Shown piece after piece: positions 10,880-54,047 of a DNA stretch of 55,779 nt. Every line of letters starts with the position of its first letter. Position 1 is the stretch's first letter. The position numbers and the translations under genes were made by a program. The notes below the pieces were generated by a model, which had not been told where the DNA came from, made no database searches, and saw nothing but the letters and a program-made list of their open reading frames with translations. Origin of the DNA: Prorocentrum cordatum (Eukaryota); NCBI GenBank assembly GCA_963575745.1, contig CAUYUJ010000135.1:62001-117779 (forward strand), written 5' to 3'.

Positions 10880-10917
<38 letters not shown>

Positions 10918-14804: not shown

Positions 14805-14842
<38 letters not shown>

Positions 14843-16200
14843 CTCCCAGAGCCTTCGGGGCCTCTCCTTGGCCCTCCTACGGAAAATCCTGCAAAACCTA
14901 GCGAATTAGTCGAGACATCCTCGAAATTCCTGCGCGCTGGACGCGGCACGCGCGAGACATCCTCGGAATTCCTGCGCGCGAGTCTTCCTTTGCATCCAAG
15001 TCCTGACCGAACTGATCTGGATCTGAAGCTCGAGCTTCCTGAACACATAGTAGCTGCCCCAGAGCTAATTGACAGGGGGACATGCCAGGAGGACGCGCCG
15101 CGAAACGTCCCCAGGGACGCGCCAGGCGACGTGCCAAGGGACGTGCCATGGGGTCGCACCGTAGGCCGTGCCAAGGGGACGCGCTACGGGACATCCTCAA
15201 AATTCCTGCGCGCGGGACGTGGCACGCGCGAGACATCTTCCGAATTCCTGCGAGCGGGACGTGAAAACAAGCATTTCGCCTGAGACATCCTCTGAATTCT
15301 GGCCCCCCACGAGGCCCCCGCTCGAGACATCCCCAAGTTTGCAGAAACCAGCGTTTCGCTCGAGACATCCTCAACAAATTATGAAAAACAAGCGTTTCGC
15401 TCGAGACATCCGGTCAAAATTCTAAGAAATCCTGACAAAACAAACGAATTAGTCGAGACATCCTCGAAATTCCTGCGCGCGGGACGCGGCCCGCGCGAGA
15501 CATCCTTGGAATTCCCGCGAGCGGGACACGAAAACAAGCATTTCGCCTGAGACATCCTCTGAATTCTGGCCCCCCGCTCGAGACATCTCCAAATTTTGCG
15601 GAAACCAGCGTTTCGCTCGAGACATCCTCCACAAACTATGTAAAATAAGCGTTTCGCTCGAGACATCCTGCCAAAGTTCTAAGAAATCCTGACAAAACAA
15701 GCGAATTAGTCGAGACATCCTCGAAATTCCTGCGCGCGGGACGCGGCACGCGCGAGACATCCTCGGAATTCCTGCGCGCGGGGCGCTTTTCCGAGTCGCG
15801 GTCGGGGCTCCAGACCCCGTTATTTTTCGAGGATTCTGCGAAAAACGCTCCGCACCCTCTTTTTTACGAGGGAAAGCGGGGGTCTGCGGACCCCGTTATT
15901 TATCGAGGATCCGAGATGGGGGGCGAACTTTCCTCGAGCGGGCACGCACAAAACGCACTTTTTCTAAAAAAATCAGCACTTTACCTCGTTATTTATCGCA
16001 AATAATTTCGCCGGCGCTTGACCCGTCAGATCCGGGGGTAAACGGCTAAAAGAGAACCCTGGGCCCGCGCCCTTTCCGGGAAAAAATCAGCACTTTACCT
16101 CGTTATTTATCGCAAATAATTTCGCCGGCGCTTGACCCGTCAGATCCGGGGGTAAACGGCTAAAAGAGAACCCTGGGCCCGCGCCCTTTCCGGGAAAAAA
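5967..16200. repeat. Composite satellite array built from three module types (~420-bp unit; ~40-bp GCGTTTCGCTCGAGACATCC unit; ~80-160-bp GGCTCTAAGATGAGACTTTGTCGTCG unit)
   Basis: Recurrent cores such as gcatccgagtcctgaccgaactgatctggatcttaagctcgagctg (e.g. ~6610, 7028, 8514, 8952, 12802), gcgtttcgctcgagacatcc (many copies in 7660-9665, 11470-11750, 15350-15670) and ggctctaagatgagactttgtcgtcg (9700-10900, 13380-14840). Confidence 0.9.
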
Positions 16201-16565
16201 GAAAACTCCTTCTCGCCCGCAGGTGTGTTAGCATCACAAGACTGACCTCACTCATGCCCAGATCCCCTCCTCTCCCACCATCCAGTATCCCTCACTCGCC
16301 ATCCCCGCTCCCACCCCACCCCTACCGCATGCCCCTCTTCAACCTCACTCCATCCCTCTTCCTCCTCCTCCTCCTGACCCTCCTCCCTTTGCATCCGCCT
16401 CATCCATCACCGATCAATCCGCTTCCTCTCTCCCTCGTGGTCGTCCTTCGCCTCATCATGTGGTTCCTCCTCATCCTCCTCTTCCTCCTCCTCCTCAGCA
16501 TGCTCATGTTTCCCCCGCGTCGTCATCATGTGTTACTTCTGTCTCTAACATCCGCCACCGTGCCT
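9720..16565 (+). repeat. Tandem segmental duplication: ~9720-12529 recurs at ~13640-16565
   Basis: The unique-looking 12160-12529 segment matches 16196-16565 (offset 4036; the ORF track shows the same MPRSPPLPP.. translation twice), and the upstream satellite modules occur in the same order. Confidence 0.9.
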
Positions 16566-17757: not shown

Positions 17758-20700
17758 ATGAATCAGCAGCATCATCATCCTCTTCCTCATCACCAACATC
17801 ATCATCAGCCTCGTCAGCATGAGCATCATCAGCCTCATCAGTATCAGCATCATCATCGTCATCATCATCACCATCATCATCAGCATCGTCATCGTCATCG
17901 CCATCGTCATCGTCATCGTCACCAGCATCAGCATCAACATCAGCATCATCGTTGTCATCATCATCAGCATCATCATTATTGTTACTCGTATGACCATTTT
18001 CATCGACACTCCGCCTCCTTCCCACCCTCCTCCTTCTTCTCCTCATCATCAGCATCACCCTCATCCTCATCAGCATCATCCTCATCCTCCTCCTCATCAG
18101 CATCATCACCAGCTTCATCAGCATGAGCATCATCAGCCTCTTCCGTATCAGCACCATCTTCATCATCCACATCAGCATCACCATCATCATCATCATCATC
18201 AACATCATCATCAACATCATCATCAGTATTGTTACTCGTTTGACCATTCTCATCGACACTCCGCCTCCCTCCCACCCTCCTCCTCCTGCTCCCCCACCTC
18301 ACACCTACTCACTCTTCCCTCTCCTTCGCCTCCCCGCTCTCCTCCTGCACATCCCCCCTCCGCCCCCGCAGTGCCCTCCTCTCCTGCCGCGAGTCGCTGA
18401 GCGCGGCTCCGCATGCCGAGGCACCAGGGCGGCTTGCCCGGCGCCGCCCGGGAGGAGCCCGACGAGAGGCCGCCGTCCGAGTCCGAGAAGTCTCCGGGGG
18501 GAGGGCGGGGCACACGCTGCGCAGTCGACCGTGGACCCCTTGGTTAGCACACCCTGGGATTCTTAGGAAGCCTGGGGGGGGGGGGCCCCCCCGACGGGGG
18601 TCAACCTCGCCTCGTCGTCGCTCCGCGCCGGGGGTCGGAGCGCCTTCGGCGCGCGGCGGCCGCCCGCGACTGGGGTCGACGTGGGGCTGCCGGCGGGGGT
18701 GACGCCCCCGACGCTTATCAGGAACCTCGGAGTAGAGGAAGCGGGTCCTGAGAGAAACGGGTCCTGGACCCTGATGCCTTCCCCCGGGACGAGTGGTGGT
18801 TCATCATGCGTTGCTTTCGGGCAGTCCTGGGGCCCGTGGAGGGCCCCGAGAGCCCGAAGACGGCGACAAACCTCGGGACCCGCTCACCTCAGGACACGCT
18901 TCCCCCATGGCGACTTGGTACCCCCCAGGCCTTGGACGGTCTTCGGCTCGGCGGTCTTCCGATGTCTCGCGGACTTCCGAGGGCTTTGGCGCTTCCCTCC
19001 CAGCTGGTCTTCCGCAGCGCCAGGCGGTCTTCGTGCGCGGAGGCTGGGCGGTTGTGTGCAACAAGGGGCCCATGATCAGGCGGGTGGTCAGGGGTGGTGA
19101 CATAACACGGGGGCGAAGGAAGGGGCCCAGAGGAGCCCTTTGGGGCCCCTTTTGGAGCCAGCCGGGGCCCCAAGGGGGCCCCGGCTGGCTCCTTTAGGGC
19201 CTTTGTCTTCACCCCCCATTTAGGCCACCCCTCATTACCACCCGCCCGACATGATCGGAAGCCCAACAAACGTACCTTCAGAGAGGCGTGCCCCCAGTGA
19301 GGCTCCTCCATCTCCTCCTCCTCCTCCTCCTCCTCCTCCTCCTCCTCCTCCTCCTCCTCCTCCTCCTCCTCATCCTCCATCTCCTCCTCTTCCTCATCCT
19401 CCTCCTCCTCCTCCTCCTCCTCCTCCTCCTCCGTAGCCATTTTGGCTCAAGCCTGCTTTGGGCGCCAGGCGGGCTGTTGCTGCCCCCTGCCGCGGCTCGG
19501 GCGACGGCGGCGGTCCTCCCCCTCGTCGGGGAGCAGGCGGCGTTGCTTGCGCCGCTGGTCAAGGCGGCAGCTGCTGGGGCTGCTGAAGGCGGCGGCGGGC
19601 GGCAGGTGGTGGCCGCCGCTGTCGCTTCGGCCCTTCGCGTGGGCGCTTCTCTCCTCGCCCCGCGCCTGGCTTCCGAGGTGGACGAGGAGGTGGCGGCGAG
19701 GGAGGAGCTTGGAAGGCCTCATCTGACCGAGATGGTGCGGGCGGGCGGCGAAGGCGTCGTGGCTCGGACTTCTGGGGCCAGTCGCGCCTTCCGCGGCTGG
19801 GCCCAGCACGCCGATTTCGGCGCAGGGCCGCAGGCGGCGCCCGCCACGGCCGGCGAGGCCCGGCGCCGGGCGCGTGGCCGCCGACGTGGGGCTGGCGATG
19901 CAGCGTCGGCTCCCACCACGGACGATTTGGAGGACGACAAGGTGGAGCTGAAGGAGAAGGTCTCATTGCACCCTTGCGCTCAGCGGATGGGGGAGCTGAT
20001 GAAGAAGGACTTCAAGTGCGCCCCTGGATGCCAGGCCACCCTGGAGGTCAAGGCGGTGGGGTCGGCCATTGACGAGCTGGCCCTGGGGAACACTCGGCTG
20101 TGCAGGGGGGAGACCAAGTGCGACTCTGAGAAGCTCGTCGTGAAGGACTCCAGGGAGACGGTCCAGGAGCAACTCGACGGGGACGTGGACTCGGAGCTGC
20201 CGAAGGAGGCGTCCCTCAAGGTCCAGGTCGGCAGAAAGGCTGCTGACCTCGATCCGCTCCTGGCCCAGGACGGCCTGGCCCGCGTCGTGACGGCCGCCAG
20301 GAAGTACGAGGCCATGCAGCAGGCGGCCTTCGGCGTCCAGCAGGCTAAGAACGCCTTGGCTGAGGCGCAGGCTTGGTTCGACGCGGCCGTTGATGAGGCT
20401 GTCGACGCTGCCTCGGGCTTGGAGGAGGACGAGCGCACGGCGTTCATGGTGAAGCTCGGCCTCCCGCCCTAGAAGGTGGCCTTGTGGTGAGTGCCGCGGA
20501 GGCTCGTGCCCTCCTGCGGCACTCCTGATTCGGTGCTGCAGAGGCCCGTGTTCCTCCTGCGCCCTGCCTGGCTGGCCGAGGCTCGTGTTCCTCCGCCGCC
20601 AGGGCCTTTTCGCGCGGAGGCTCGTGTTCCTCCTGCGCCGCGATGTGCAGTCGCGGAGGCTCGTGTTCCTCCTGCGGCTGGGGCCCTGGGGTTGCGGAGG

Positions 20701-32787: not shown

Positions 32788-33930
32788 TCACGAAAGCAAG
32801 TGGAGCACTGACGATTTCTTCTTATCCTTGCCGCTCCCAGCCGCAGCCGCAGCCGCCTGACCGCCGCCGGTCGCCTGGGCGGTGGCGTCAACGGCTACGA
32901 TGGCCGCGGCGATGTGGGCAGCGGCAGCCGACGGCCCGAACAGCTGGTCGATCTGCGTCGGCGGCGCATTGGCGCAGCGGGCCACCCTGCGCTTCACCGC
33001 CACCTCGTCCTGAATCGCCAGGCGGGTCAGCTCCACGAAGCCGGGCCTCGCGTTCTCCTGCACGTTGGAGTCGCCGAGCCGCGCGGGCGAAAGGTAGGTC
33101 ACCTCGCGAGGCCGAGGAGGGCCCTCCTCCCTCAATCGATATTTTCCCTCCCTTCCTCCTCGCTGCCCCCGTTTCCCAGGGGGAGTGAGGTCAGGATGCG
33201 AGGACGAGGAGTCGAGGAGGAGGGGGGAACGCAGGGGCGAGGAAGGCAGGGAAAATATCGATTGAGGGAGGGGGGCCGCGCCTTGATGGTGATGGTCTGG
33301 GCGACGCCCTCGATCCACAAGTAGTCGGGCAACTGGATCGCGCGGTTGCGCACGTGGCCCGTCATCGTGGGGCGCTCGCCGGTCCCGTCAGGAATGGTGC
33401 GAACCAACCAGGCTGGGACAGGGCAATCGGCAGTGATGCTGTCCACCGCCTTCGGGGACGCATACACTCCGAGAGTGAGGCTGTCCCGCTCGTCCTTTGC
33501 ATCGAGCTTCAGGGCGCACACTAGGAAAGACTTGTCACCACGCGACATAGTCACAGGCCCGCAAAAGATCAGGTCCAGGTCACTCTGCATCTCCCCATCC
33601 CTGATCATCAGCACACCCTTCCCCTCGGTCTTGCCCTTTTTCTTAGTAGACTCCTTAGATTCCGCCGAGGGCGGGGACCAGTCGTGGAGCAGCTTGTTGA
33701 TGTTGGCCATATTGGTAGAGTGGAACGCCTGCTTGTACAGTTCGGTCTCAATGTAGCAGCAGAAGAGCTTGAGCCAATACGCAGAAGGGACAACCCCCAC
33801 AGGGAACACCAGCTGGCAGTCGTCGGTCTTGATGGTACCCGCCGCCTGCGACGCCAGGTTGATGTGCGAGTTCGCGGCCAGCGCCAGGTTCTCGGGGTTC
33901 GCGAACCTTGGGAGGCGCGCGCCATGGGAG

Positions 33931-34000
<70 letters not shown>

Positions 34001-34110
34001 TCTCACTCCCCCCTCCCCTCCCTCCCTTTATATTTTTTAATATATCCCCTTACTTCACTCGCTCATCCCCCGCTCCATCTATATAGAGTCTTTGTATCCC
34101 TCATCCTCCA

Positions 34111-34208
<98 letters not shown>

Positions 34209-37200
34209 CCCCCTCCCCTGAGGAGGGAGAGGATGGGTGGATGGGGTGGAGGATTTGAAGAGGAGGAGGACGCTTGCACGCCCGTGAGCCGGTAGACGTC
34301 CTGCAAAGCCATGGCCCGCCCCGCGAACGCAGCCGCCGCAGCATCGGCGGTCGCCTCCGGCGCCTGGGCTGGCGCCTCATCCGCCGCCGCCGCAGCGTCG
34401 GCCAGCGCCAGCGGGGCTGCCGGGGATGCCGCCGCTGACTCCGTGGACGCCGGCGAGGGCTGCTGCTGCGGCTTCGCCAGTCCGTGCGGTGTCGTGATCT
34501 TCGCGACGAGGTCGTCACTGTCATCGCCGTTGTACCTGCCCACCAGGAATGCCTGGTTCGCCTGCACCCACTGGGAGTACGAGAGATGCCCATCCAAGTC
34601 CTGCATGTGGCGGAGATCGGGCACGTGCGAGCGCAGCTTGGTCAGGTCGACCTTGGTAGGGTTCTTGCCGAGCTCGATGAACAGTTCCTGCTCCGTCAAG
34701 ATGTCGTCGAAGGCCAGCATGGTGTACATCGACCGCAGCTTCATGAACGATAGGAGGTCGCCGGCCGTCGCGAAGAAACGCATGGTGCATCCAGGCAGCT
34801 GAGACGTCAGCTTGAGGTACTTTGCGGAGTACTGGCAAAACTTCAGCATCTCTGGCGCGATGACCGCCTGGAGTTTCTCGCGCACGAGTTCGAGCATGCG
34901 CCTCAAGAACTCAGACAGGGCGGATTGGTCGCTCTCTTGGCGGAAGGCTGCATCTAACATCGCGCGCCCCTCCTTGCCGCTGTTGTCCCCGAGCTCGTCG
35001 TAAAGCGCACCGAGCAACGCCCGAAACGCTGGGTGCCGCTTGGCGCTCCGCCCGAGAGCGTTCTCCTTCAGGAAGGTCGATAGCCGGGCGCCAACTTCGA
35101 CCGAGGCGGTGTCAAGCTTCGCCAAGAGGACCGTCTGCTCCGAAGCCTTGATGTCTTCGCTGCTTCCTGCTCCGCCCGCGAGATTGGCCAAAGTGGTCCT
35201 GAGGGCGTCCCCAACCGATTGCTCGGCCTTGTTGGGATCGCCGTCGTCGCCGAGGGCACCCACGCGGCTCAGGGCGGTCGCGGCGGCGATGTCCCTGAGC
35301 TTGGGCCGCAACTCCGACCACTTCTCGTACACTGTCTTGCCCAGGCGCACCTTCGTCTCGAAGCAGAACTCGGCGGCGGGCGGCATCAACTGCTTGAAGA
35401 TATCCATCTGGTCCTTATCGGACAAAGGGCAGTCCGACATGGCCGACATGATGCAAGAAATCGCATCCAAGAGCCACACCTTGTGCTGGTCCATGTTGTC
35501 CGGGTCGAAGTCGGACTTGGGCTTTGCCCTCGGCTTCGGCTTGGCCTTCGGCACCGGCCTCGGCACCGCCAGCTTGGGCTGCGGCACGGGGGCAGCGCCA
35601 GTGCCAGTTGTGACGGCCGGCGGCGTCGTCGTCGCGGCCGCCGCTGCCCGCTCCGCCGCCGCCACTCTCTCGGCCTCCTTCTCCGCTGCCTTCTTCGCAG
35701 CCTCGATGCCGCGCCGCACCACGACGCTCTCCCCCATTGGAGTGGTCAGCCACTTGCACATATCGAGCTTGATCTTGTCGAAGATGAAGACGGGCGCCCT
35801 GGACCCATCCTCGGGCGGGGTCACCGGCACGCACATCGGGAGGACGATGAACCAGACGGCCTTCAGGATCTCGATATCGATGACGGCGCGCACGCCCTCG
35901 TGGAAAATTGACACCGAAAGGTGGTGAAGGTTGAACACCGCCATAGCGTTGTCCATCCGCTTGTCGTGGAATTTGCCGCGGCGGCCGAGGAACTCAAAGG
36001 TCTGGTCCCTGACGCCCCAGCGCTTGAGGGCGTTCAGGAGAGCCTGGGCTGAGACGACGCCCTCAAAGAAGGAAGGACGCCTTCCTCCTCCTCCTCCTCA
36101 TCCTCCTCTTCCTCCTCAGGGATTCCTCCTCCTCCTCTCGGACCAGGCCTTGAGATCCAAACGGCCTTCCTTGCGAAGGCCGTCGACCCCTCGAGATACT
36201 GAGATACTCCTCCTCACCTGTCCTCTCATCCGTCCTCCATCCGCAATCAATCGCGGGGCCCGCAAGGGCCCCCAAGGGCCCCGAAAACATTCGAGGGATG
36301 GGCGCGCTTGGCCCGATGTCCTGGGCCGAGATCAGCTCGTTGTGACTCTTCACCCGCCTGTCCCGCTCCTCGTAATTCTCGCAGAGCCACTCGTACACGT
36401 TCAGGTCGGTCCCCATGATCGCCTTGGCAGCCTTGTGCTCGGCGATGTAGGTGCGCACAGCCTCGAAGTACTGTAGCAGCGTAAAGGCCGACCCCCCATG
36501 AAAGTTATTGTGAAAGTCGCGAAGCCAGTTGATCACGTCGGGCGGCGTGTCAGCGTAGAAAACCGTCATGTTTGAAAGCCCCTTCTTAAGGGTGTGCTTC
36601 ACCATGTGATTTTTCGGGTCTTCCTCAGCTGCTTTGTAGACGGCCTGGCTCAGAGTGTTGTAGGTTACCATCAAGTACGGGAGTTTCCCGCCGGGCGAAA
36701 AGAGAGCCCAGGGCTCGCCGCGCACCCCCTGGACGGCGCCGTCGATTTTGACGCCATCGGCGTAATCCCTGACGACGCTGTCCTGGCGCCTCTTGTTGAG
36801 CGGATGCGGCTCCATCGTTTTCTGGCCGCCCTCGGTGAAGAATTTCACGCCATTGATGTTCCTATAGCCTGGAACGGCGAAGTCGTCCAGCACCTGGTCC
36901 AGCAATGCTGCGCCCTGCAGACCTGGATACCGCTCATTGATAGTGCCCATCGGGCGGAACTTGTCATCCCTAGAGACCTTCTTCGACTTCTTGGCCGCCG
37001 CGCTGGGGCCCGCGCCGGCGTCGGAGCCCACGTCGGAATCAGACATGAGGCGGAGGGAGAGGGGGAGGAGAAGGAGAAGGAGGGGGGAAGGAGAAGGAGG
37101 GGGGAAGGATGAGGAAGGCAGACCTCTGGGTATCGCCGACCTCCGACACGCCCGCGGCCGACTCGGACTCGTCGTCGTCGGTGGTGTGATTGGAGGACTT

Positions 37201-37452: not shown

Positions 37453-37850
37453 GGCGGCGCCCGGCACAGGCGAGTCCGCGGTGCTGTAGGTCGGTGTCGG
37501 ACCAGAAGATGAGAGGCGCTCACTTGCAATGTCGAAGTTGAAGCCACAAACAGCTGGTAGCGATGAGGCGACGAGCGATCGGCGATCGCAGTTATGGCAA
37601 AACGAAGCGGACTGAGGAGGAGCCCATGAGGCGAGGAGATGGATGAGATGGATGCGTGCGAGCCGATCCCCAATCAGGGCTTGCAGCAGTTGCTTCTCGC
37701 ACATGCGTTGGCTTTAGCTGTAAGGGGTCCTGCATTCGCCGTGCGAGCTCGGTTTCGAAGACAAAGACTTCGCATCGCAACAACACGATGAACTTTTCGG
37801 GGGTTCCCAGGGTCCTTCGACCGACGGACAGAATTAGTTTGTTTCGAACG

Positions 37851-38135
37851 ATCCCCACCATCCTCCTGTGCTGTGTGTTCTGTTGTGCTGTTCTGTGAAT
37901 GCGCGGTTCTGTCATGTAATGTCATGCTCTGTTCTGTCCTGTCATGTTCTGTTCTGTCATGTGGTGTCGGTGTTCTAACTTGGGGTCTGGCGGCCGCGGT
38001 ATGCAGGCGGGTGAGGTGGGATTCTCGGGACATTCGGGGATTCTCGGGACAACTTGGGGTCTGGCGGCCGCGGTATGCAGGGTGGGGGTGTGGCCGGGGG
38101 GCCTGTTCTAAGAAATCTATCAACCCTTGTCGGGT
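37851..38135 (+). repeat. Dispersed repeat shared with 52079-52625
   Basis: Same motif order in both copies: atccccaccatcctcctgtgctgt, (TGTTC/TGTCA)n, ggattctcgggacaacttggggtctggcggccgcggtatgcagg, gttctaagaaatct. Confidence 0.9.
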
Positions 38136-38986
38136 GGAGAAAAAAGATCGAGCTCCTGAGCTGGCCCCTCTGGAGTACAGCCCACTGCCCTGCCGAATAC
38201 CTTCTTAGCTCCTCTCATCCTCCACCTCCCCTCCCAGGCACCTCCCCGCGAGCGGGCGCACCGCGCGTGGGCGGTGGCGGCGCGGGGCTGTCCCCGGGCC
38301 CCATCGCGGCCGCATCCTCGCTCGCCGGCGCCACGCCCAGGCCGTTGGCGAGCACGACGTCCTGGCGGCGGCGGCGGATGGGGACCCCCCCGCGGTGCGC
38401 CTCGCCATCCTGATCCTGATCATCTCCTCGCTCACATCCTCTCGCCTCCAATCTCCTCCTCGTCCTCAGGTCTTCCCCATCCTAGTCCACGAGCGTCGCT
38501 GTCGGTCATGCCCCCTCCTCTCCCCAGCATCTCCCCCTCCTCCTCCTCGGGGCGAGAGGCGCAGACACCGCGAGCAGGATAGGATAAAGGGAAAGGGGAG
38601 GACAAGAAGAGGAGAGGGAGGGCGGAACGCAAGTCGAGGAGCAATGGAGGGCACGGGTCCGACCTTTTGCAGTCGTGTGCGGCCGCTAGGCCGATCGAGA
38701 AGACTCCCCCAGTCGCCGTGCGGCGCGTCTTGCACGCACCGCGCGCAGACTGAGGCAGACTGAGGCATAAGAGAGCACGCTATCAGAGAGCAGCCAGAGG
38801 CAGATACGCGCGCGTGCACGCACGTTCGGATGAGCGCATTTGTATCACGCGTGCACCCCCTTCCCCCCCCCTGCATCGCGCACACGCATCGCACGCAGCG
38901 CACGCAGCAGCATGCGTGATCACGATATCCACTGGCGCCTGCGGCTGTACACCCGCGGGACACCGTCGGACAGCGTCGACCAGAAA

Positions 38987-41900
38987 CTAAACAAAACGCA
39001 GCAGTGGGTCCTGATCAGCCCTCTTCACCTCAGCTAGGACGTAGAGCCAATGCACCCCGCACACATGAAGATTCATGCTGTTCCCGAATTGCTGCATGAC
39101 CTGGGCTCGCTGGCGCGGGCGCGCCCGATTAAACGAGCTCAGGGCCCGGCTGGGCCCGCGCGGCGTGGCAAGATCCTCCCTCACGGGGAAGCCCTGCGCA
39201 GCCCCGAGCTCGAACGGCGTGAGCCAGCGCTGGATCGCATCGTACCAGATCACCTGCGGATTGCGAATCACCGCGCTGAGGAAGCACTCAGTGCTTGACC
39301 AACCCCTGTCTTTCTTCGCGTCCTGACTCAAGTTGTGGCACACGAACGGCGTCGGCGAGCCCCTCTGGTACTCTCGGAGGTTCTCCAGCTCCCACGTGGT
39401 GAGGCTGTCCAGAAACGCTCGGCTTGAAGGGATGAGGTCCGCGTCTGTCACCGGCACGCCGCGAGCACGACTCAAAGGCCGATTGCGGGCCCACTCCAGC
39501 TCCGCCTTGAGCTCGGCAGCATCGGCGATGCAGAACTGATCCAGCGTGCACCGAAGGGTCCGATAGAAGAGGGGGATCGTGTTGGCCAAGGTGCTGCGAG
39601 CCTAGGCGCATGCCGCAATCTCGGCATCGAGTCGGCATCGGTCGTCGATCGTCGATCGTCTGAGCCTAATCGGGATCTGATCGGGGAGGAGGTCCGATCT
39701 ACGTGGGCCGAGCCCAATCGGTCGATTCAAAAACAGAAGACGGCACCTCCATGACGAAGGTCTTGTGCAGGAGGAGCGTGAAACGACGCTGGCGTCGGAC
39801 TGGCCAGCCGAACTCGGGCGGCTCCACGACGTGGCTGAAGATGATGTAGGTCTTGCCCAGCAACTGCCGAAGAATCTCCACATCAAAGCGATGTGAGTTT
39901 TCGTGCAGCACCACTACTTCCTGCAGCACGAGGCGAAGGGCCGCCCAGATTGCCAACAGGCACGAACTCTGGCCATCCGCCCCCTCGTTGGTGCCAATGG
40001 GGGCCCAATCTGGGCACGGAGTCCCCGCCCAATGCACCTTGCCCGTCGGGTGAGAGCACCAGCCCCGGCACCGGGCGCAACGCGCGAACGTCCGCACGGG
40101 CCGCGAGGACGACTGCGGGTGCCTCGCTTCCTTCACGATCGCCACCAGGTCCTTCAGCGTGACGCCGTGTTCGCTAGCAAGCAGCTTCGTGATGCTGGCC
40201 TTCATCTCAGGCTGCCAGAAGTCCATGATGTCGGTGAACATGTGCTCCGGGAGGCTGTGCGGCAGGTGGGCGAGCTCCTTGTTCGCCTCTGGCGCGATCT
40301 CAATGGAGCACAGGTGGCGCATGGGGCGAACGGGCTCGCCCAGGATATCCTCCAGACTTGCCGCGAGCACAGCTCCTGCCGTCCCCGGCGCGTCTATGCC
40401 GGTGAAAGCCGTCGTGTAGGTCGCGTCGTGGATGGCCCGCTTGACGTCGTATAGCAGCGATGTGCCATGCGTGGCAGCCAGCGCGCGAAGGCCGTCGTGA
40501 GCCCAGCTGAAAATATCCTTGGTGTTCCTGACGACTGGCTTCGACCACTCCCCCAGACTCGGCAATGCTGCCCGTGGCACGGGGGCGGGGGGCGGCGACG
40601 GGGACCGCGCTCGGACCAGATCCACCGGCGTTGCCACGTATGACCCCAAGGGCAAGCTGCTTGCCTGCGACTCCGATGTGCCGCCCGTCGCGGCGCCATG
40701 TGGGTCATCGCTCGTGGCGACGGCGGCGTCTGCGTCTGCATCAGCTGCTTCCTGCTCAGCCTCGCCCCACACGCCGCGCCACAGAGCCGCATCGGCATCG
40801 TCGGCATCAGCTGCCTCGTGCCCGAACTCGGGCGGATCGGGCTCCTCGATCCCGAACGCCGCGCGGAGCTCAGCCGCTGCGTCCAAGAGCCCAATCGGAG
40901 CTCCTTCAGTCTCGCTGGTCTCGCTTAGCGCGAGGCAGCTGTTGGCGCCGCTGCGGCGAAGCTGCGGCGCCGCAGTCTCGTGCGGCTCGCCCGCGTCGCT
41001 GAGCTCCTGCACGGCCGCGTCCTCGGGCATTGGGGGGTCCTCCCAATCGCCGGGGCACGCTTCCCCGCGCCACTGATGCGCCCGCGCCCAGCCAATCCAG
41101 CAGGCCCGCTTGCTGGCCTCGTCGGAGGAGCAGCCGTGGGCGCAGTGATTGGCCCAGGCAGCCCGCCAGAGCCTAAGGTCCTCGGCCGTCACTTGCAGGG
41201 GCAGGGCGAGCGGCGCCCCGCGCGGGCTGCGGCTGCGGCTGCGGCTGCGGGCGCCCGCCCGCGAGGGCGACGGCGATGCGCACTCCAGGAGGCCGAGTGC
41301 CGCACCAAGCTGGTCCACGACCATTGCCGCGTCGAGCCCGTCGCCGAGCGGGGTCGCGGTCCCCGCGGTCGGCGGCGCAGGCTCTGCCACCAGGACTAGG
41401 GCTGCTGCGCTCTCCGCGGGCGCTGCCGCCGCAGCGACGCTGTCAGGCTGGGCCGAGGACGGCGGCGCTTCCTCAGCTTGCTCCATCGCCGGGGCTGAGG
41501 CGGCGCTCGCAGCGGGCACCGTCGCCACGTCGAGGTCGCCGGGCGGGGCCGCGGGCGGCGGCGTCTGATCCGTCGCAGGGGCTGTGGACCCTGGGGCTGC
41601 TGCGCCGTCTGCGGGCGGGGCTGCGGGCTGCGGCGCATGCTCAGGCGCCGGGGCGGGGTATTCCCTCCCCGCGGGCGCCATCGCAGCATCGAAGCTGTCG
41701 GGCGGCGGGGATACACGTGGCGGCACAGGATCCGTCGTCAGGGCTGAGGCTGCGCTCTCCTCAGGCGCCGTCGCCGTCACGGCGTCGCCGGGCGGGGCCG
41801 GTGGCAAGCGCTCCGTCGTTGGGGTGGGGGCTGCACTCTCCCCAGGTGCCGTCGTCGTCGCAGCATCGTCAAGGAGTGATGGCGCAGCCTCCGTCGTTGG

Positions 41901-42959
41901 GGCTGGGTCTGCGCTCTCCTCAGGCGCAGTCGCCGTCGCAGCGGGCGGCGGTGCAATCGTCGGGGCTGGGGCTGTGCTCTCCTCAGCAGGCGGCGTCTCC
42001 GTCGCAGCATCGCGGTCACCCGGAGGGGCTGGGTCTACGCTCCCCACGGGCGCCGTCGCAGCATCGACGCTGCGGGGCGGCGGTGCGAGCGGTGGCACAG
42101 GCTCCGCGGCCGGGGCGGAGGTGGCATTCTCAGTCGGCGCCGCCGCCGTCGCGGCATCCGCGCCATCAGGCGGGGCTGCGAGCGGCAGCGAGTGTTCCGT
42201 CGTCGGAGTTGCAGTCTCCCCTGGCGCACCCGTCGTCGCACCCTCGCTGTCGCCTGGCGGGGCATCCGTCGCCTGAGCTGGTGCTGCGTTCTCAGCAGGC
42301 GTCGCCGCCGACACCGCATCGCCGGCATCGGGCGGGGCTGCGGGCGGCGGCGCTGGCTCCGTCTCCGGAGCTGGGGCTGGGCTCGCAGCAGGCGTCGTCG
42401 CAGCAAGGCCGTCGGGCGGGCCCGCGCACGGTGGCGCCAGCTCTGTCGCCGTCGCAGCGTCGATGTCACCAGGCGGCGTTGTGGACGGGGTCCCTGGCAC
42501 CGGCGCAGGGGGCGCTGGCTCAGCAGCGAGGGGCTCGGCCAAGGCAGCGGACGGCGGTGCCACCGCAGCGGTGGTTGCAGCGCCATTCCCAGCGGGCAAT
42601 GGCGCCGCAGCGTCGCTGCGAGCCTGGGCACTGGCAGTGGGCTCGGGCTCGGATGCCACAGCGGTCGCCGCCGGCAGCGGTGGCGGCTCCAGCTCATCAA
42701 CGCTGGGCGTCGCGGCGGCGGGCGGGTGCGCGGCCGGCTGCACCGGCGGCGCGCCCGGGCCCGGCTGCGTCACGGGCGGGGCCCGGGCTGGCGGCCCAGT
42801 CGGCCGGCTACGCTTCCGCGCTGGTGACGTGGCGCCCGCGGCGCCCGGCACAGGTGACCCCGACGGCGTCGCGCGGCGGAGCAGCCCGCGCACGTCCCTG
42901 GAGCCGGTCGGCGCAGGTGGTTCGCGCTGGCGCCGCGCGGGCGGCCGCGCGGGCGGCAT
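38987..42959 (-). CDS. C5-cytosine DNA methyltransferase (~1275 aa) with a long Ala/Pro/Thr-rich N-terminus; exons 42959-39747 and 39601-38987
   Basis: Ordered C5-MTase motifs: I AFTGID, II SIEI, III TDIMDF, IV AGTPC (catalytic PC), VI HENS, VIII PVRRQRRF; then, after a 145-bp phase-0 GT-AG intron, IX RWLTPFELGAAQGFP and X FGNSM. Confidence 0.9.
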
Positions 42960-43012
42960 CGACACAGCACAGGCGATCACGGGCAACTGTATGTGATACG
43001 GAACACGCACTG

Positions 43013-43034
43013 CTTAAGCCCAAATGGCTACGGA
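43013..43034 (-). other. Relic dinoflagellate spliced leader upstream of the methyltransferase
   Basis: Minus strand TCCGTAGCCATTTGGGCTTAAG is a 20/22 match to DinoSL and ends 53 nt before the ATG at 42959. Confidence 0.88.
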
Positions 43035-43329
43035 CATGCGCGCACATGCTGTTGTGGCACGTGAGGTGGTGGCCTGGACCGCACCGTGGCTTGAATGCGG
43101 CGCGTGTGCAATGATGTGATAGCGGGTGTGTGCGCGCGGTGGCGCGGCGTGCGATCGATGTGAATGCGATGTGCACGGGCGTGTCGTACGTGATCACAAA
43201 GGTCCGAACGGTGCATGCACAGCATGTGAATCATATGGCGTGAGGCGCGGCGCGTCCTGGAACCCTAGGAGGTGGACGCCGCGTGCTGCATGGCTACGAC
43301 GCGTGAGCTGTGATTCGCATCCTAGCACT

Positions 43330-44985
43330 CAGGAGGCGCATCCTGGATCGCAGGAGGGATGGCATGGATCCCAGGAGGGAGGTCCTGGCCCGCAAGAGGC
43401 AGGTCCTGGATCCCGGGAGGGGGGTCCTGGATCCCAGGAGCGGGGTCCTCGATCGCAGGAGGCAGGTCCTGGATCCCAGGCGACGAGGCACGGTCCCAGG
43501 AGGTGGATCCCGAATCCGAGGAGGCACGTCCTGTATCCCAAAGGGAGGGGGCATTGCTCCCAGGAAGGAGGTCCTGGAGCACGCGCGGATGACCCTCGAT
43601 CGCAGGAGGCGGGTCCTGGAACCCAGGAGGCGGATCCTGGATCCCAGAGGGATGGCTGCGGGCCCCAGGAATCAGATCCTGGCTCCCAGGAGGTGGATCC
43701 TGGATCCCAGGAGTGGGGGTGGGGGGCCAGGAGGGAGGTCCTCGATCCCACGGGGCAGGGCATCGCTCCCAGGAGGCAGGTCCTGGATCCCGGGAGGGGG
43801 CGGGCTGGCTAGCAGGAGGCGGGTCCTGGATTCCAGGAGGGAGGGGGGGGTGTGTGGGGGCTGGAGCCCAGGAGAGCGCGCAGGAGCCAGGAGGCGGATC
43901 CTGGATCGACGGATGGCGGTGTTGGGATCAGGAGGGACGTCCTGGAACCCACGTGGCGGATACTCGATCGCGGGAAGCAGGGCATGGATCCCAGGAGGTG
44001 GCTCCCGAAGCCCGGCAGGTGATGCCCGAATCCCAGGAGGCGGGTCCTGGGTCCCAGGAGTGGAGGGGGGGGGTACCAGGAAGGCGGTCCTGGATCCCAC
44101 CATGAATGCCCTCGCGCACATGAAGCAGTTCCTGGATCAAGGGGGCAGGTCCTGGATCCCGGGAGGGGGGTCCTGGATCCCAGGAGCGGGGTCCTCGATC
44201 GCAGGAGGTAGGTCCTGGATCCCAGGGGACGAGGCATGGTCCCAGGCGGTGGATCCCGATTCCCAGGAGGCCCGTCCTGGATCTCAGGAGGGGATGCCAT
44301 GGGTCATAGGAAGGAGGTCCTGGATCGCAAGCGGGTGGCCCTCGATCGCAGGAGGCGGGTCATGTGACCCAGGAGGTGGCTCCTGAAGTCCAGATGGGAG
44401 GCCGTGGGTCCCAGGAAGCAGGTCCTGGCCCCCAGGAGGCGGGTCCTGGATCCCAGGAGCGGGTGGGGAGGGGGTGGGCGGGAGGGGGGAGGGGATTCCT
44501 GGATCCCACGGGGTCGGGCATCGCTCCCAGGAGGCGGGTCCTGGTTCCCTGGCTGGGGGTGGGCTGGATATCAGGAGGCAGGTCATGGATTCCAGGGGGG
44601 GGGGATGGGCCCCCGAGGTCGCGCGGGAGGCAGGTCCTGGATCACAGGAGGTGGGGTCGTGGATCCCCGAAGTGCGTCCTGGGCCAATGCGATATGCCAG
44701 CGCCCCCGGGAGGCAGCTCCCGAATCCCATGAGGGAGGTCCTGGATCCCAGGAGCGTGGAGATAGATCCCTGGAGGCGGGTCCTGAATCCCAGGAGGCGG
44801 ATCCTGGATCAGGGGGGGGGGGGGGGAGGTGGGGAGGGCGGTGGCTCGGTCTCCACGCGCGTGGCATGATGGGCACCCTGGCTCCCAGGAAAGGGGTCCT
44901 AACTCCCAGGAGGGGCGTCCTGGATCGCATGAGGTAGGCCATGGATCCCAGGAGGCGGGTCCCCTGGGCGACGTGGATCCAGGAA
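43330..44985. repeat. ~21-bp minisatellite with quasi-palindromic core CCTGGATCCCAGG
   Basis: Dozens of diverged ggtcctggatcccaggagg units; a higher-order copy is visible (~43398-43620 vs ~44146-44370). Confidence 0.92.
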
Positions 44986-50310: not shown

Positions 50311-53300
50311 AGGAAAGGAGAGGGCGGAGGATGGAGGAGATGGAGGATGGAGGATGGAGGAGTCCTCGAGCGTGAACAACGCGAGCTGATATGGGACATA
50401 GATCTCCGCCGGCTCGGCGAACGCTGGCTCCTCTTGCAGCCGCGCGTAGTGGGCAGGCCAATCGTGATCAAGCACCAAATCGCTGTAGTCGAGGCTCAGC
50501 TCTTCAATTCTCCACTCCACAAGCTGGGCAAGGTGACCACCGTCAGCATATGCGTCCACGGTCTTCTGCATGAAGAGTTGGAGGTGTGTGCCAGGGGCGT
50601 GTGCGAGACTCATCACCTCCACGAAGTACCAATACATTGGATCGTGGATGATGCCCGCCACGTCCCGCCGCCATTTGCCCATCTTGCGACGGTAGCCCTG
50701 TTGCTCCTCCACGCGTAGCTCGTCAACCGGCACAACAGCGCCGGCACCGCCAGCAGCACCGGCGTCGCGGGCGGCATCCTCGACGGCCTTGAGATCGGCG
50801 TCCTTAGTCTTATGGAGGACCCTGTCCAGCGTAAGTGCCAACTGACCACGAGCGCCAGCACACTCACCAGACCACGCGCCGCCCGACGCAGACCGTAGAG
50901 CAGATCAGAGAAGAAATAAAGCAAGATGAGGAGGCAGGAGGGGTGGGCGGAGGGGGGAGGGGAGGGATGAGGGGGAGGGGAAGCGAGGAAGGGGCGAGAG
51001 AGAGAGAGAGAGGGAGGACAAGGAGGAGGGATGAGGAAGCCAGAAGGGCGAGGCGGAGGAGGGGGACGAGGAGTCGTGGCGAGGAGGAGGAGGCGGAGGA
51101 GGGGGATGAAGAGGAGGAGTCACCGGAGTCGGTCTTCTGTGGATGCTATGGACAACCATCGTCCAGCTACGCACCTGGGTACCAGCTTAAGGGCGTGCTG
51201 GCACGCCGATACTGCGCCATGGGCCTTGGTCCAGACGCGCATCACATCAGCCGCGCACTCTCGCCAACAGTGCGACAGCTTGGCGCAGGCCGAAAAATAT
51301 TTCCACGTCTTACCGAGCCTGACCAACCAAGAATCGCAAAGATGCAAACCAGTTTTAACCGTCAACTGCTGGATGTGGCTGACGCACGGGATGACCACGC
51401 CCACGTCGCACATGCTGGGGGACAGGTCGGTCAACAACATCCGCTTGAACACCTTCTGGTCGGACCCACCGTCCGAGGTATACGCCCACCACGTCATCGC
51501 ACGATTATCAATCGTCTTCCAGAAGGGGCAGCCTACTGACATCAGTTGTTTTTTCAGGATCGCGTACGTGCCCTGTGCCTTTTTGTTATGAACACGATGG
51601 ATATCTGGAACGATGTCTACATCACATATGGACTCAGCCAAGTGAGACGATCCGATCTTAGAGTAATCTGTGATGTACAGGCTGTGCAGCTGCGTGTTGT
51701 GCAGTGAACAGTCGTGCCACACTTTGGAATTCGTTGCGTCCGATCTGAAGATGTGAGCACGTATATGTCGCTTGAAGTCGGAGTCGTTAGGAGGCGATGA
51801 ACGCTGCCAATGTTCTTGCAAGGCGTGGAAGCGCCGAGAATAACCAACCCAAGATGCCGCCAACAAGCCTTCATAACGGATCACCGACTGTGAAGACACG
51901 TCCTCCAAGATAACTGCGCCCAGGTCTGCAGCGCCAACAGATGAGAGGTTCCTACCAGGGCTGGACCTAACCTAAACGGTTTTTGTTCGCTGTGTGGTCG
52001 TGTTGTTTTCGCTTTGTTCTGCCAGTTCTCCTGCGCCCCCCCCCCGACAAACGAAAAACAAACATATGTTGCTTCGAGCGATCCCCACCATCCTCCTGTG
52101 CTGTCGGTTCTGTCGTGCTGTTCTGCCAACGTGATGTTCTGTCATGTTATGTCCTGCTCTGCTCAGTCCTGTAATGGTCTGTTCTGTCAAGTTGTGGTAT
52201 GTCGTGTTCGTCATGTTCTGTTCTGTCATGTCGTATTTGTGTTCTGTCGCGTTCGTCGAGGGCGCGAGGCGGGGCGAGGCGGGACTCTCGGGGCTCTCGG
52301 GGATTCTCGGGACAACTTGGGGTCTGGCGGCTGTGCAGGCGGGATGAGGCGGGACTCTCGGGGATTCTCGGGACAACTTTGGGTCTGGCGGCCGCGGTAT
52401 GCAGGCGGGACGAGGCGGGACTCTCGGGACTCTCGGGGATTCTCGGGACAACTTGGGGTCTGGCGGCCGCGGTATGCAGGCGGGATGAGGCGGGACTCTC
52501 GGTACTTTCGGGGATTCTCGGGACAACTTGGGGTCTGGCGGCCGCGGTATGCAGGGTGGGAGGTGGGTGGGGGGTGTGGCCGACGGGTCTGTTCTAAGAA
52601 ATCTAATAACCCCAACCTGTCGGGTGGGGAACGAAGCCCGAAATCCAACAAAAACAACGGTTAGGCCCAGCCCTGGCTCCTCCGCAGAGCCACCGCGAGC
52701 CGCGATTGCGGCGTCATGTGGGCTCTGGCCCGGCCACGGGCTGGAGGGGGCCGTTCAATGACAAACATCTTATTGGCCAGAGCCGCTAGATCTCTCGCAC
52801 TCGCCTCAACGATCTGGCAATCGTCGTCACCGTCGGCGGCGGCGTCGGCCCGGGCGGCCCGCGCCCGCGCCTCCCGCCGGTGGGCGGCGTCCGCTTTCCG
52901 CAGGCACCTCAGCTCGACGTCCTTGAGCACCATCATCTGAGCGCGGGCCAGGGGCGGGGGGCAGGGCAGGCTGAGGAGCTGACGACGACAGCGTGTGAAG
53001 GGGTAGCGGACGAGGCGCGCCGGTCGGAGTCAGACGGATGAGAGAGGAAGGGAACGGGGAGGACCAGGCGACGAGTTGACAGTTGACAGCGCTGACACTC
53101 TCACCCCAACGCCCTACTCAGTCCTCCTCGGCCTCCTCTCCCCCCGTCAGCTGCATCTATTGCGTCGCCTAGGGCCTAGCACGCCGTCCTACACCTCCAT
53201 TCCTCGTCGCGACGTCGTCGGTCACTACTCGCCGTGGGGATCGATCGCTTCCTCGCTCGTCACCACCCCCCTTCGCCGCCCTCCCTACCTCCCCTACCCA

Positions 53301-53596
53301 GCCTTGTCAATCCTCCCGCTGCAGGCTCATGGCTCATCCGCACCCCTGCCTATCCGTTGTCCATCGCCCCTCTCTCCACCAACCTCCTCCCTCCGCGCCC
53401 TCGCGACTCCCCGCGCGCAGAGCGCGCGCGCCTGCACGAGAGTCTCGGCGCCCATGGCGCGGTACTCCTCCACGTCCAGGAGGGGCAGGCGCCTGGCGGC
53501 GCAAGGGCGAGGACGCAGCCGGGCGAGAGGATGGCGAGGCGGCGAGCTGGCGCGAGGGCGACGGGAGTTGGCGAGGCGAGGTAAGGAGACGGCGAG

Positions 53597-53672
<76 letters not shown>

Positions 53673-54047
53673 CAGAGAGAGGGAGAGGGAGGGAGGGATG
53701 GAGGGAGGGAGGGAAAGAGAGAAGGAGAGCGCAGTCAGGTCGGGCCCTGCTGCACTTTGAAATCTGTTGCCGCCCGATCGGGCAGGCGATGCGATCCACC
53801 CGTGCACTTTGAAATCTGTTGCCGCCCGATCGGGCAGGCGACGTGATCCATCCACTCCTCTCCCACTCAACCGGTGTGATCCATCCACTCCTCTCCCCCA
53901 CTCCTCTTATCCACACATGTCTCTCTATCTCTCTCTATATCGCTCTCTATCTCTCTCTCTCTCTATCTCTCTCTCTCTCTTTCTCTCTTTACCGCTATGC
54001 GCAGACTTGCACAGGGTAACGTTCTCATTTACTGATTGCGGTCCCTA

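What the first reader, a model, noticed from the sequence alone, without database searches (positions are those of the whole stretch)
42959..43034. Relic spliced leader suggests the methyltransferase was captured as a retroposed mRNA
A 20/22 DinoSL match lies on the coding strand 53 nt before the ATG, and the first exon is 3.2 kb without introns while neighbouring genes are intron-rich. Established: relic SLs at gene 5' ends mark mRNAs recycled into dinoflagellate genomes. Inference: a trans-spliced DNMT transcript was reverse-transcribed and ended up inside a DNA transposon, an RNA-mediated route of cargo acquisition.
Basis: partly seen in the sequence, partly recalled or inferred. Interest (0 to 1): 0.8.

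Follow-up and report, generated by a model that had tools for sequence, protein, structure and literature searches.

The report
Relic spliced leader before methyltransferase gene
A real leftover copy of the dinoflagellate spliced leader sits just upstream of a cytosine DNA methyltransferase gene, which marks it as one of this organism's many RNA-derived gene copies; nothing shows it lies inside a DNA transposon.

Summary
A 20/22 match to the dinoflagellate spliced leader (DinoSL) lies on the minus strand at 43013-43034. It ends 53 nt before the first ATG (42959) of a 1086-codon open frame. Chance expectation is about 2.6e-5 per window.

The DNA is Prorocentrum cordatum. The locus encodes CAK0788900.1 exactly. 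The product is a divergent C5 DNA methyltransferase of the M.HhaI type with a long Ala/Pro-rich N-terminus.

The retrogene reading follows the published criterion and is the best explanation. It is also ordinary: over 20% of Symbiodinium genes carry such relics, and a second, perfect DinoSL lies at 19430 in this window.

- **Introns:** the gene is not intronless. A 145-nt GT..AG intron (39746-39602) splits the methyltransferase domain.
- **Neighbours:** the downstream neighbour also has long exons.
- **DNA transposon:** I found no transposase, reverse transcriptase or integrase in 143 ORFs scanned, no terminal inverted repeats, and no poly(A) or target-site duplication.

No RNA data or other genomic copies could be reached, so trans-splicing and relic conservation remain untested. 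Verdict: a new member of a known kind, of low to moderate interest.

The parts
43013..43034 (-). Relic DinoSL. It matches 20 of 22 positions (TTTT>TTTG and CTCAAG>CTTAAG) and is full length, including the first T and the internal AG of CCGTAG.
42960..43012 (-). 53-nt spacer between the relic and the first ATG, presumably the 5' UTR of the retroposed mRNA. The TAA inside the relic's CTTAAG closes the frame upstream.
   Evidence: the stop-to-stop ORF runs 39699..43013.
39747..42959 (-). Exon 1, 1071 codons. About 800 codons form an Ala/Pro-rich, repeat-containing N-terminal region. The first half of the C5-DNMT domain follows (motifs FTGIDAPG, GTPCPDW, HENS, RRQRR).
   Evidence: GC3 exceeds GC2 from about codon 500 onward. 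Codons 100-500 show no GC3 excess.
39602..39746 (-). Single intron of 145 nt, GT donor and AG acceptor followed by G.
   Evidence: The frame shifts between the two ORFs. Models CAK0846791.1 and CAK0788900.1 join ...FVME to ARSTLAN.... The spliced translation contains P0156 exactly. tblastn of homologues P0159 and P0008 breaks at this point. A genomic Logan contig of run X1 runs through it unspliced (record 5).
38987..39601 (-). Exon 2, 204 codons plus the TAG stop at 38989-38987. It holds the second half of the DNMT domain (LTPFELGAAQGFP, QQFGNSMN, C-terminal RADQ).

Best explanation
This is a genuine relic of the 22-nt dinoflagellate spliced leader at the 5' end of a Prorocentrum cordatum gene. 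The gene has the spliced model 42959-39747 plus 39601-38990 and encodes 1275 aa. Its product is a divergent M.HhaI-like C5 cytosine DNA methyltransferase with a long Ala/Pro-rich N-terminal extension. The locus is most likely an ordinary DinoSL-tagged retrogene, or a DNA-level duplicate of one.

The inferred history is as follows. An SL-capped transcript of a DNMT paralogue was reverse-transcribed by a resident retroelement enzyme and integrated. This left SL, a 53-nt 5' UTR and the CDS in the genome. The single 145-nt intron was either still unspliced in the template or arose later. Transcripts of the present copy are expected to receive a fresh SL at the AG inside the relic (CCGTAG|CC) or upstream of it. 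The relic's retained TTTG may also act as a core promoter element, as proposed for Symbiodinium.

Shown here: the relic, its position and strand, the gene model, the DNMT family assignment, and at least two near-identical copies in the species. Inferred: the retroposition itself, its extent, and present-day trans-splicing. The locus is not demonstrably inside any transposon.
For: - **Relic specificity:** 20/22 match, 0 of 100 shuffles with any match, analytic expectation 2.6e-5 per window, next-best sites at 14-15 of 21.
- **Position:** coding strand, 53 nt before the first ATG of a 1086-codon frame. This is the -50 to -100 zone where Symbiodinium relics are best conserved (PMC5585692 passages).
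- **Not an SL RNA gene:** the 22-mer is followed by CAGTGC, not a GT donor, and the window has no Rfam match.
- **Gene structure:** two long exons and one 145-nt intron, against a genome mean of 11.7 exons of 240 bp and introns of 4709 bp.
- **Introns do not exclude a retrogene:** intron-containing DinoSL retrogenes are documented (PMC6050394 and PMC5585692 passages).
- **Frequency in this species:** 477 retrogenes were reported for P. minimum from transcriptomes (PMC12014239 passage). A second, perfect DinoSL lies at 19430-19451 in this window.
- **DNMT identity:** 1475 relatives at E<=1e-3. PF00145 is the only Pfam family found, in 21 of 39 top relatives, 15 of them at or above the 22-bit cut-off. 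The family profile hits M.HhaI residues 70-173 at E=3.3e-8. Catalytic-motif columns are invariant.
- **Copies:** P0156 (CAK0788900.1) is an exact substring of the spliced translation. P0004 (CAK0846791.1, another contig) differs at 4 of 758 residues. P0159 (CAK0863357.1) is a paralogue 58-60% identical over the DNMT domain.
Against: - The gene has an intron inside the DNMT domain, so it is not a fully processed copy.
- On the minus strand, the 2.1 kb downstream of the stop holds no A-run of 5 or more and no A-rich 20-mer. Only two chance-level 9-mers are shared with the 66 nt upstream of the relic, so there is no target-site duplication.
- No parental gene was identified. The gene structures of the paralogues could not be read because no eukaryote genome is held.
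- No RNA run holds the locus, so neither expression nor trans-splicing was tested.
- Codons 100-500 of exon 1 lack the GC3 excess of the rest, and the public model starts at codon 505. The true start codon, and hence the '53 nt before the ATG' relation, is not certain.
- A homologue (P0009) has a 49-residue in-frame insertion 7 residues upstream of this intron site. It may be an unspliced intron, which would hint that the intron region is old in the family and not gained after retroposition.
Confidence: 0.6

Rival explanations
1. Only the 5' end is RNA-derived. In this reading the locus is a chimera, or the result of partial cDNA conversion. The relic, the 5' UTR and some or all of the Ala/Pro-rich 5' part come from a reverse-transcribed SL-mRNA. 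That mRNA could be the same gene's or another's, and it recombined with or landed in front of a resident DNMT gene. The DNMT domain and its intron were never retroposed.
For: - An intron persists in the 3' part of the gene while the 3.2-kb 5' part has none.
- GC content is 0.72-0.76 over 40-44 kb against about 0.64 over 38-40 kb. Codon-position GC also differs between codons 100-500 and the DNMT domain.
- N-terminal regions are unalignable among family members, while the DNMT domain is conserved.
- There is no poly(A) or target-site duplication at the 3' side.
Against: - The paralogue P0159 also carries an Ala/Pro-rich N-terminal extension of about 310 aa. That architecture therefore predates this copy and need not come from a separate fusion.
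- The frame is continuous from the first ATG into the DNMT domain.
- Intron-containing whole-gene retrocopies are reported as common.
Confidence: 0.17
2. A trans-spliced DNMT mRNA was reverse-transcribed and the cDNA became cargo of a DNA transposon, which now spreads it.
For: - The gene exists in at least two near-identical copies on different contigs.
- A dispersed direct repeat (37840-38150 and 52070-52640) brackets 14 kb that include the gene.
- The DNMT gene and the orphan gene B downstream both have atypically long exons.
- The literature notes DNMT-bearing DNA transposons in marine viruses (PMC5890265 passage).
Against: - No transposase, integrase, reverse transcriptase or helicase family matched any of 143 ORFs at E<=0.001-0.01. 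These were 32 ORFs plus 111 of the 124 ORFs of at least 100 aa with entropy of at least 3.75. The other 13 of the 124 had been scanned. About 199 low-complexity ORFs, and exons under 100 aa, were not scanned.
- No terminal inverted repeats bracket the gene. The long distant inverted pairs are (CT)n/(GA)n.
- Gene B has no homologues at all, so it is not a recognisable transposase.
- The bracketing repeat is direct, not inverted, and is made largely of tandem subunits of about 65 bp.
- The top 39 family members carry no mobile-element domain.
- No related locus was found in IMG/VR.
Confidence: 0.05
3. The DNMT is part of a DNMT-carrying retrotransposon of the kind described in Symbiodinium (SymbioLINE-Dnmt or SymbioDIRS-Dnmt3). 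The SL-like sequence would belong to that element's 5' UTR.
For: - In Symbiodinium, over 90% of DNMT genes are intronless and embedded in LINE or DIRS elements (PMC5890265 passages).
- This DNMT belongs to a large, divergent, mostly metagenomic family.
Against: - No RVT, endonuclease, RNase H or tyrosine-recombinase hit occurs anywhere in the window.
- The ORF downstream of the DNMT is an orphan with no reverse transcriptase.
- The gene has a spliceosomal intron.
- None of the 39 relatives has a reverse transcriptase domain in the same protein.
Confidence: 0.03
4. The 22-mer is not a retroposition scar. It would be either a chance match or a fragment of an SL RNA gene.
For: - Nine-mer matches to the SL occur at chance level in the window: 5 loci against a mean of 2.8 in shuffles.
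- About 2 chance 20/22 matches are expected per genome.
Against: - The expectation per window is 2.6e-5.
- The match is on the coding strand right before the first ATG of the longest frame in the window.
- There is no GT donor after the 22-mer, so it is not an SL RNA gene exon-intron junction.
- Rfam finds no RNA gene there. I do not know whether Rfam has a dinoflagellate SL RNA model.
Confidence: 0.03

Closest known systems
DinoSL-relic retrogenes of dinoflagellates
   Same: A relic of the 22-nt SL lies on the coding strand within 500 bp upstream of the ORF, here at -54 to -75. The TTTG core is retained. A residual intron is tolerated. The species (as P. minimum) is already reported to have many such genes. 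Sources: Song et al. 2017 (PMC5585692), the review PMC6050394 and PMC12014239, all read as passages. Slamovits & Keeling 2008 is cited in those passages and was not read.
   Different: This is a single relic with no tandem or multiple SLs. No parent was identified. The gene is a C5-DNMT. No paper in the searched library holds both 'DinoSL' and 'DNMT'.
SymbioLINE-Dnmt and SymbioDIRS-Dnmt3 (de Mendoza et al. 2018, PMC5890265, passages read)
   Same: Both concern a dinoflagellate C5-DNMT that is multi-copy, nearly intronless and divergent from Dnmt1 and Dnmt3. Both involve an RNA-mediated route of copying.
   Different: [quoted passage not shown] Here no such domain lies nearby, an SL relic is present and the gene has an intron.
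Bacterial type II C5 methyltransferases (M.HhaI, M.HaeIII; PF00145)
   Same: The catalytic core motifs and their order are shared. The family profile matches M.HhaI residues 70-173 at E=3.3e-8.
   Different: The window protein alone reaches only 13.3 bits against the 22-bit PF00145 cut-off. It has an insertion of about 100 residues between the FxGxG and PC motifs, an N-terminal extension of about 800 aa, and a eukaryotic intron. Assignment to Dnmt5c, Dnmt6 or another named eukaryotic subfamily was not tested.
   Same: The only shared point is that a host-like gene occurs in more than one near-identical copy.
   Different: No transposase, terminal repeats or defined element ends were found. Those capture systems, as I recall them, usually work at the DNA level rather than through cDNA.

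Membership tests
DinoSL-tagged retrogene | DinoSL or a recognisable relic on the coding strand within 500 bp upstream of the ORF (criterion of PMC5585692) | tested here: met
   A 20/22 match at 43013-43034 on the minus strand, 53 nt before the first ATG. None of 100 shuffles gave a match.
DinoSL-tagged retrogene | Loss of most parental introns relative to an identifiable parent gene that has fewer relics | not testable with these tools
   No eukaryote genome is held. Paralogues P0004 and P0159 are known only as proteins. The locus has 1 intron against a genome mean of 9.8.
DinoSL-tagged retrogene | 3' hallmarks of retroposition (poly(A) tract, target-site duplication) | tested here: not met
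   No A-run of 5 or more, no A-rich 20-mer, and only two 9-mer coincidences in the 2.1 kb after the stop. The dinoflagellate papers read do not require this feature.
DinoSL-tagged retrogene | Transcripts carry a fresh SL spliced at or upstream of the relic | not testable with these tools
   No RNA holder was listed. The runs laid are DNA contigs.
C5 cytosine DNA methyltransferase (PF00145) | Conserved motifs in order: I (FxGxG), IV (PC), VI (ENV-like), VIII (QxRxR), X (GN). The motif names are recalled, not taken from a call. | tested here: met
   FTGIDAPG, GTPCPDW, HENS, RRQRR and FGNSMN are present. G350, C478, E516, R552 and R554 are invariant in 9 and in 32 relatives. The family profile hits M.HhaI at E=3.3e-8.
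C5 cytosine DNA methyltransferase (PF00145) | Pfam gathering score of 22 bits reached by the protein itself | tested here: not met
   Exon-1 ORF alone: 13.3 bits, E=0.056. The 98%-identical spliced model P0004 has no hit at E<=0.001. Fifteen of 39 relatives reach 22 bits. Membership therefore rests on family-level evidence.
DNA transposon carrying cargo | Transposase (or Helitron Rep/helicase) ORF within the element | tested here: not met
   None of the 143 window ORFs scanned has such a family. Short exons and about 199 low-complexity ORFs were not scanned.
DNA transposon carrying cargo | Terminal inverted repeats bracketing the cargo | tested here: not met
   Of 162 inverted pairs in 30-48 kb, I saw the 25 longest (29-56 nt). 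None brackets the gene. All are low-complexity or local. The 112-123-nt pairs 34097-34219 / 53584-53706 are (CT)n/(GA)n.
DNA transposon carrying cargo | Multiple copies with identical sharp ends and target-site duplications | not testable with these tools
   Other copies are known only as proteins. Metagenome and viral scans found no related DNA.
SymbioLINE-Dnmt / SymbioDIRS-Dnmt3 | Reverse transcriptase with endonuclease or tyrosine recombinase ORF adjacent to or fused with the DNMT | tested here: not met
   No RVT_1, Exo_endo_phos, RNase_H or Phage_integrase hit in the window or in the 39 relatives.

The most novel reading that the evidence does not exclude
This Ala/Pro-rich DNMT subfamily of Prorocentrum may multiply by repeated retroposition of its own SL-capped mRNA. 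In that case every copy, including CAK0846791.1 and the 60% paralogue CAK0863357.1, would carry a relic at the homologous place. Dinoflagellates would then have a second, element-independent RNA route for expanding DNA methyltransferases, beside the retrotransposon-borne DNMTs of Symbiodinium. A stronger variant is that the DNMT gene, the orphan long-exon gene B and the bracketing direct repeats (37840-38150 and 52070-52640) form an unrecognised mobile or virus-derived unit.
Probability: 0.1. Interest if true: 0.55.

Novelty: new member of a known kind. Interest (0 to 1): 0.25.

Why it matters
Relic spliced leaders are the accepted tag of RNA-mediated gene duplication in dinoflagellates, and they mark a fifth or more of genes in the genomes studied. 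One more example changes little. The modest point of interest is the gene involved. In Symbiodinium, DNMT copy number exploded because DNMTs were built into retrotransposons, and those copies were explicitly said not to be retrocopies. A Prorocentrum DNMT that carries an SL relic and has no retroelement around it would show that plain mRNA retroposition also duplicates methyltransferases in this lineage. The proposed capture by a DNA transposon would have been the surprising part, and it has no support in the sequence.

Tried and rejected
- **Whole genome:** none is held for this window, so other copies, genome-wide relic frequency and parent genes could not be examined.
- **Sequencing runs:** no RNA holder was listed. 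The four runs laid are contigs. X1 covers parts of the gene at 99-100% identity and runs through the intron unspliced, so it behaves as genomic DNA of the same organism. X2 holds two short identical pieces. X3 holds nothing. X4 holds only 31-mers over the SL itself. This gives no information on expression or trans-splicing.
- **Related loci:**
  - Family alignments A2 and A3 were not conserved enough for the pattern scan.
  - Single proteins P0004 and P0154 found no confirmed locus in the metagenome contigs.
  - P0004 found none in the viral contigs.
- **Gene B, as a possible transposase:**
  - Pfam gave nothing.
  - Protein searches gave one weak hit at E=7e-6 and then none.
  - The ESM Atlas gave only sub-threshold or unnamed clusters.
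  - The single-sequence AlphaFold model had pLDDT 36 and was not searched further.
- **Terminal inverted repeats:** rejected. The distant pairs are microsatellites.
- **A second upstream relic at about 43279-43300:** rejected. It matches only 11 of 22 positions and shares a single 9-mer, which is chance level.
- **Earlier findings of this scan:** three look-ups returned nothing.
- **Literature:** a search on P. cordatum DNMTs returned nothing relevant among the 12 papers listed.
- **DNMT subfamily:** assignment to Dnmt5c, Dnmt6 or the SymbioLINE type was not attempted. The passages read from PMC9998398 gave no usable criterion.
- **BLASTP of P0159 against P0004:** the output showed only weak N-terminal segments. 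I relied instead on tblastn for the 58-60% identity.

Full report
**The observation**

The window reads TCCGTAGCCATTTGGGCTTAAG on the minus strand at 43013-43034. It differs from the dinoflagellate spliced-leader consensus DCCGTAGCCATTTTGGCTCAAG at two positions.

- None of 100 dinucleotide-preserving shuffles of the window gave a match at up to 3 mismatches.
- The 15-nt core at up to 2 mismatches gives the same two sites, against a shuffle mean of 0.07.
- From base composition, the expected number of matches with up to 2 mismatches is 2.6e-5 per window and about 1.9 per 4.15-Gb genome. The genome size comes from the abstract of PMC10449503 as listed.
- Scored ungapped over the 21 fixed positions, the window has two outliers (21/21 at 19430 on the plus strand, 19/21 at 43034 on the minus strand) and six sites at 14-15/21.

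The relic ends at 43013 and the first ATG downstream on that strand is at 42959, so 53 nt lie between them. From that ATG the frame stays open for 1086 codons.

**Organism and gene model**

The best database relative of the C-terminal 287 residues is P0004, at 98% identity. Its source names it an unnamed protein of Prorocentrum cordatum, CAK0846791.1. Its 90% cluster also holds P0156 (CAK0788900.1) from another contig.

Both public models join ...HKTFVME to ARSTLANTIPLF.... In the window this corresponds to a GT donor after 39747 and an AG acceptor before 39601, followed by G. The intron is therefore 145 nt, at 39746-39602.

- Translating 42959-39747 plus 39601-38990 gives 1275 residues without an internal stop.
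- That translation contains P0156 as an exact substring from residue 505. P0004 differs at 4 of 758 positions.
- The window locus is therefore the gene behind CAK0788900.1, or an identical copy of it, and a second near-identical copy exists elsewhere in the assembly.
- Homologues P0159 and P0008 each align to the window in two tblastn pieces that break at this intron.
- A genomic Logan contig of run X1 runs through the intron unspliced (record 5).

**The protein**

The exon-1 ORF alone scores below the Pfam cut-off for PF00145: 13.3 bits against 22, E=0.056. The family-level evidence is nevertheless clear.

- There are 1475 representatives at E<=1e-3 and 460 at E<=1e-10.
- Among 39 top relatives, PF00145 is the only family found. 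It appears in 21 of 39, and 15 of those reach 22 bits or more.
- A profile of nine members hits M.HhaI residues 70-173 at E=3.3e-8.
- The motif columns FxGIDxxG, PC, E of HENS and RxR are invariant.

The first 800 or so residues are Ala/Pro-rich and partly made of 63-81-nt tandem units. GC3 exceeds GC2 from about codon 500 onward but not in codons 100-500, and the public model starts at codon 505. How far the N-terminus is really translated is therefore uncertain.

A P. cordatum paralogue, P0159 (CAK0863357.1), is 58-60% identical over the DNMT domain and also has an Ala/Pro-rich N-terminal extension.

**Is it a retrogene?**

By the published criterion the locus qualifies. That criterion is a DinoSL relic within 500 bp upstream of the ORF on the coding strand (PMC5585692 passages). 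The relic sits at -54 to -75, inside the -50 to -100 zone where relics are best conserved, and it keeps the TTTG that those authors discuss as a promoter motif. It is followed by CAGTGC, not by a GT donor, so it is not an SL RNA gene. Rfam finds nothing in the window.

The gene structure is far from the species average of 11.7 exons of 240 bp with introns of 4709 bp (PMC10666404 table passage).

The intron does not disqualify the locus. Two passages say so:
- Retrogenes and source genes do not differ in intron presence (PMC5585692).
- Retained introns suggest retroposition before mRNA export (PMC6050394).

On the other side, I found no poly(A) remnant and no target-site duplication. I could identify no parent gene, and I could not reach RNA data. 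I put 0.6 on whole-transcript retroposition, or DNA duplication of such a copy. I put 0.17 on a version in which only the 5' part is cDNA-derived.

**How ordinary is it?**

It is very ordinary.
- Over 20% of genes in two Symbiodinium genomes carry relics.
- P. minimum (now P. cordatum) had 477 retrogenes detectable from transcripts alone (PMC12014239 passage).
- This 56-kb window holds a second, perfect DinoSL at 19430-19451, which is also not followed by a GT donor.

The only unusual element is the gene involved. No paper in the searched library holds both 'DinoSL' and 'DNMT'. The Symbiodinium study states that its intronless DNMTs are not retrocopies but parts of LINE and DIRS elements (PMC5890265 passages).

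**The DNA-transposon claim**

I found nothing to support it.
- Pfam scans covered 32 long ORFs and 111 further ORFs. Together these include all 124 ORFs of at least 100 aa with entropy of at least 3.75 found.
- They gave no transposase, integrase, reverse transcriptase or helicase. One search had no hit at all, and one search had only sub-threshold low-complexity hits.
- About 199 low-complexity ORFs, and exons under 100 aa, were not scanned.
- The 25 longest of 162 inverted pairs in 30-48 kb are low-complexity or local hairpins, and none brackets the gene.
- The 112-123-nt pairs at 34097-34219 / 53584-53706 are (CT)n and (GA)n.

The same-strand downstream gene B (ATG at 37046; coding-like ORFs 36066-37046, 34082-36097 and 33135-34049) has no Pfam family and no homologue.

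The one structure that brackets the DNMT gene is a dispersed direct repeat, 37840-38150 and 52070-52640. It is about 90% identical in aligned blocks and is built largely of tandem units of about 65 bp. It is not inverted, and I cannot tell what it is.

**Verdict**

The retrogene inference is reasonable and conventional, while the cargo-capture story is unsupported. This is a new member of a known kind, of low to moderate interest. The decisive tests are comparison with the other genomic copies and SL-primed cDNA. Neither was possible with the data held here.

Noticed in passing
window 19312-19451 (+), ORF from 19732: A perfect 22/22 DinoSL lies at 19430-19451. It directly abuts a long (TCC)n microsatellite that is in register with the leader's first TCC. 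It is followed by CCTGCT (no GT donor), and the first ATG comes 280 nt later, opening a 246-codon frame. This is probably a second, younger relic-tagged locus.
   Followed up: partly
window 33135-37046 (-): Orphan gene B lies downstream of the DNMT gene on the same strand. It has three long coding-like ORFs (GC3 0.74-0.85 against GC2 0.40-0.48) separated by short gaps that hold microsatellites. It has no Pfam family and no homologue apart from one hit at E=7e-6. A single-sequence AlphaFold model had pLDDT 36.
   Followed up: partly
window 37840-38150 and 52070-52640 (+/+): A dispersed direct repeat, about 90% identical in aligned blocks, with 2 against 5 copies of an internal unit of about 65 bp. 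The two copies bracket 14 kb that contain the DNMT gene. Its nature is unknown (intergenic satellite, solo LTR-like element or other).
   Followed up: partly
window 43330-44464, degenerate to about 44960: A 21-bp minisatellite (consensus CAGGAGGCGGGTCCTGGATCC, 53.6 copies at 60% matches) starts about 300 nt upstream of the relic on the gene's 5' side.
   Followed up: no
window 5965-16565: Dense tandem and segmental duplication. For example, 9675-12164 against 13611-16086 is 93% identical and 12045-12529 against 16081-16565 is 100% identical. Many 200-800-bp units repeat at 75-98% identity. No Pfam hit falls in the ORFs there.
   Followed up: no
proteins P0005/P0006 (EukProt 'Pyramimonas sp. 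CCMP1952') and P0159: A fragment labelled as a green-alga transcriptome sits in the same 90% cluster as P. cordatum CAK0863357.1. The likely cause is dinoflagellate contamination of that transcriptome. It also indicates that the 60% paralogue is transcribed.
   Followed up: no
protein P0009, alignment A3 columns 675-723: A homologue from an ENA contig has a 49-residue in-frame insertion 7 residues upstream of the window gene's intron site. It may be an unspliced intron read through by a prokaryotic gene caller.
   Followed up: no
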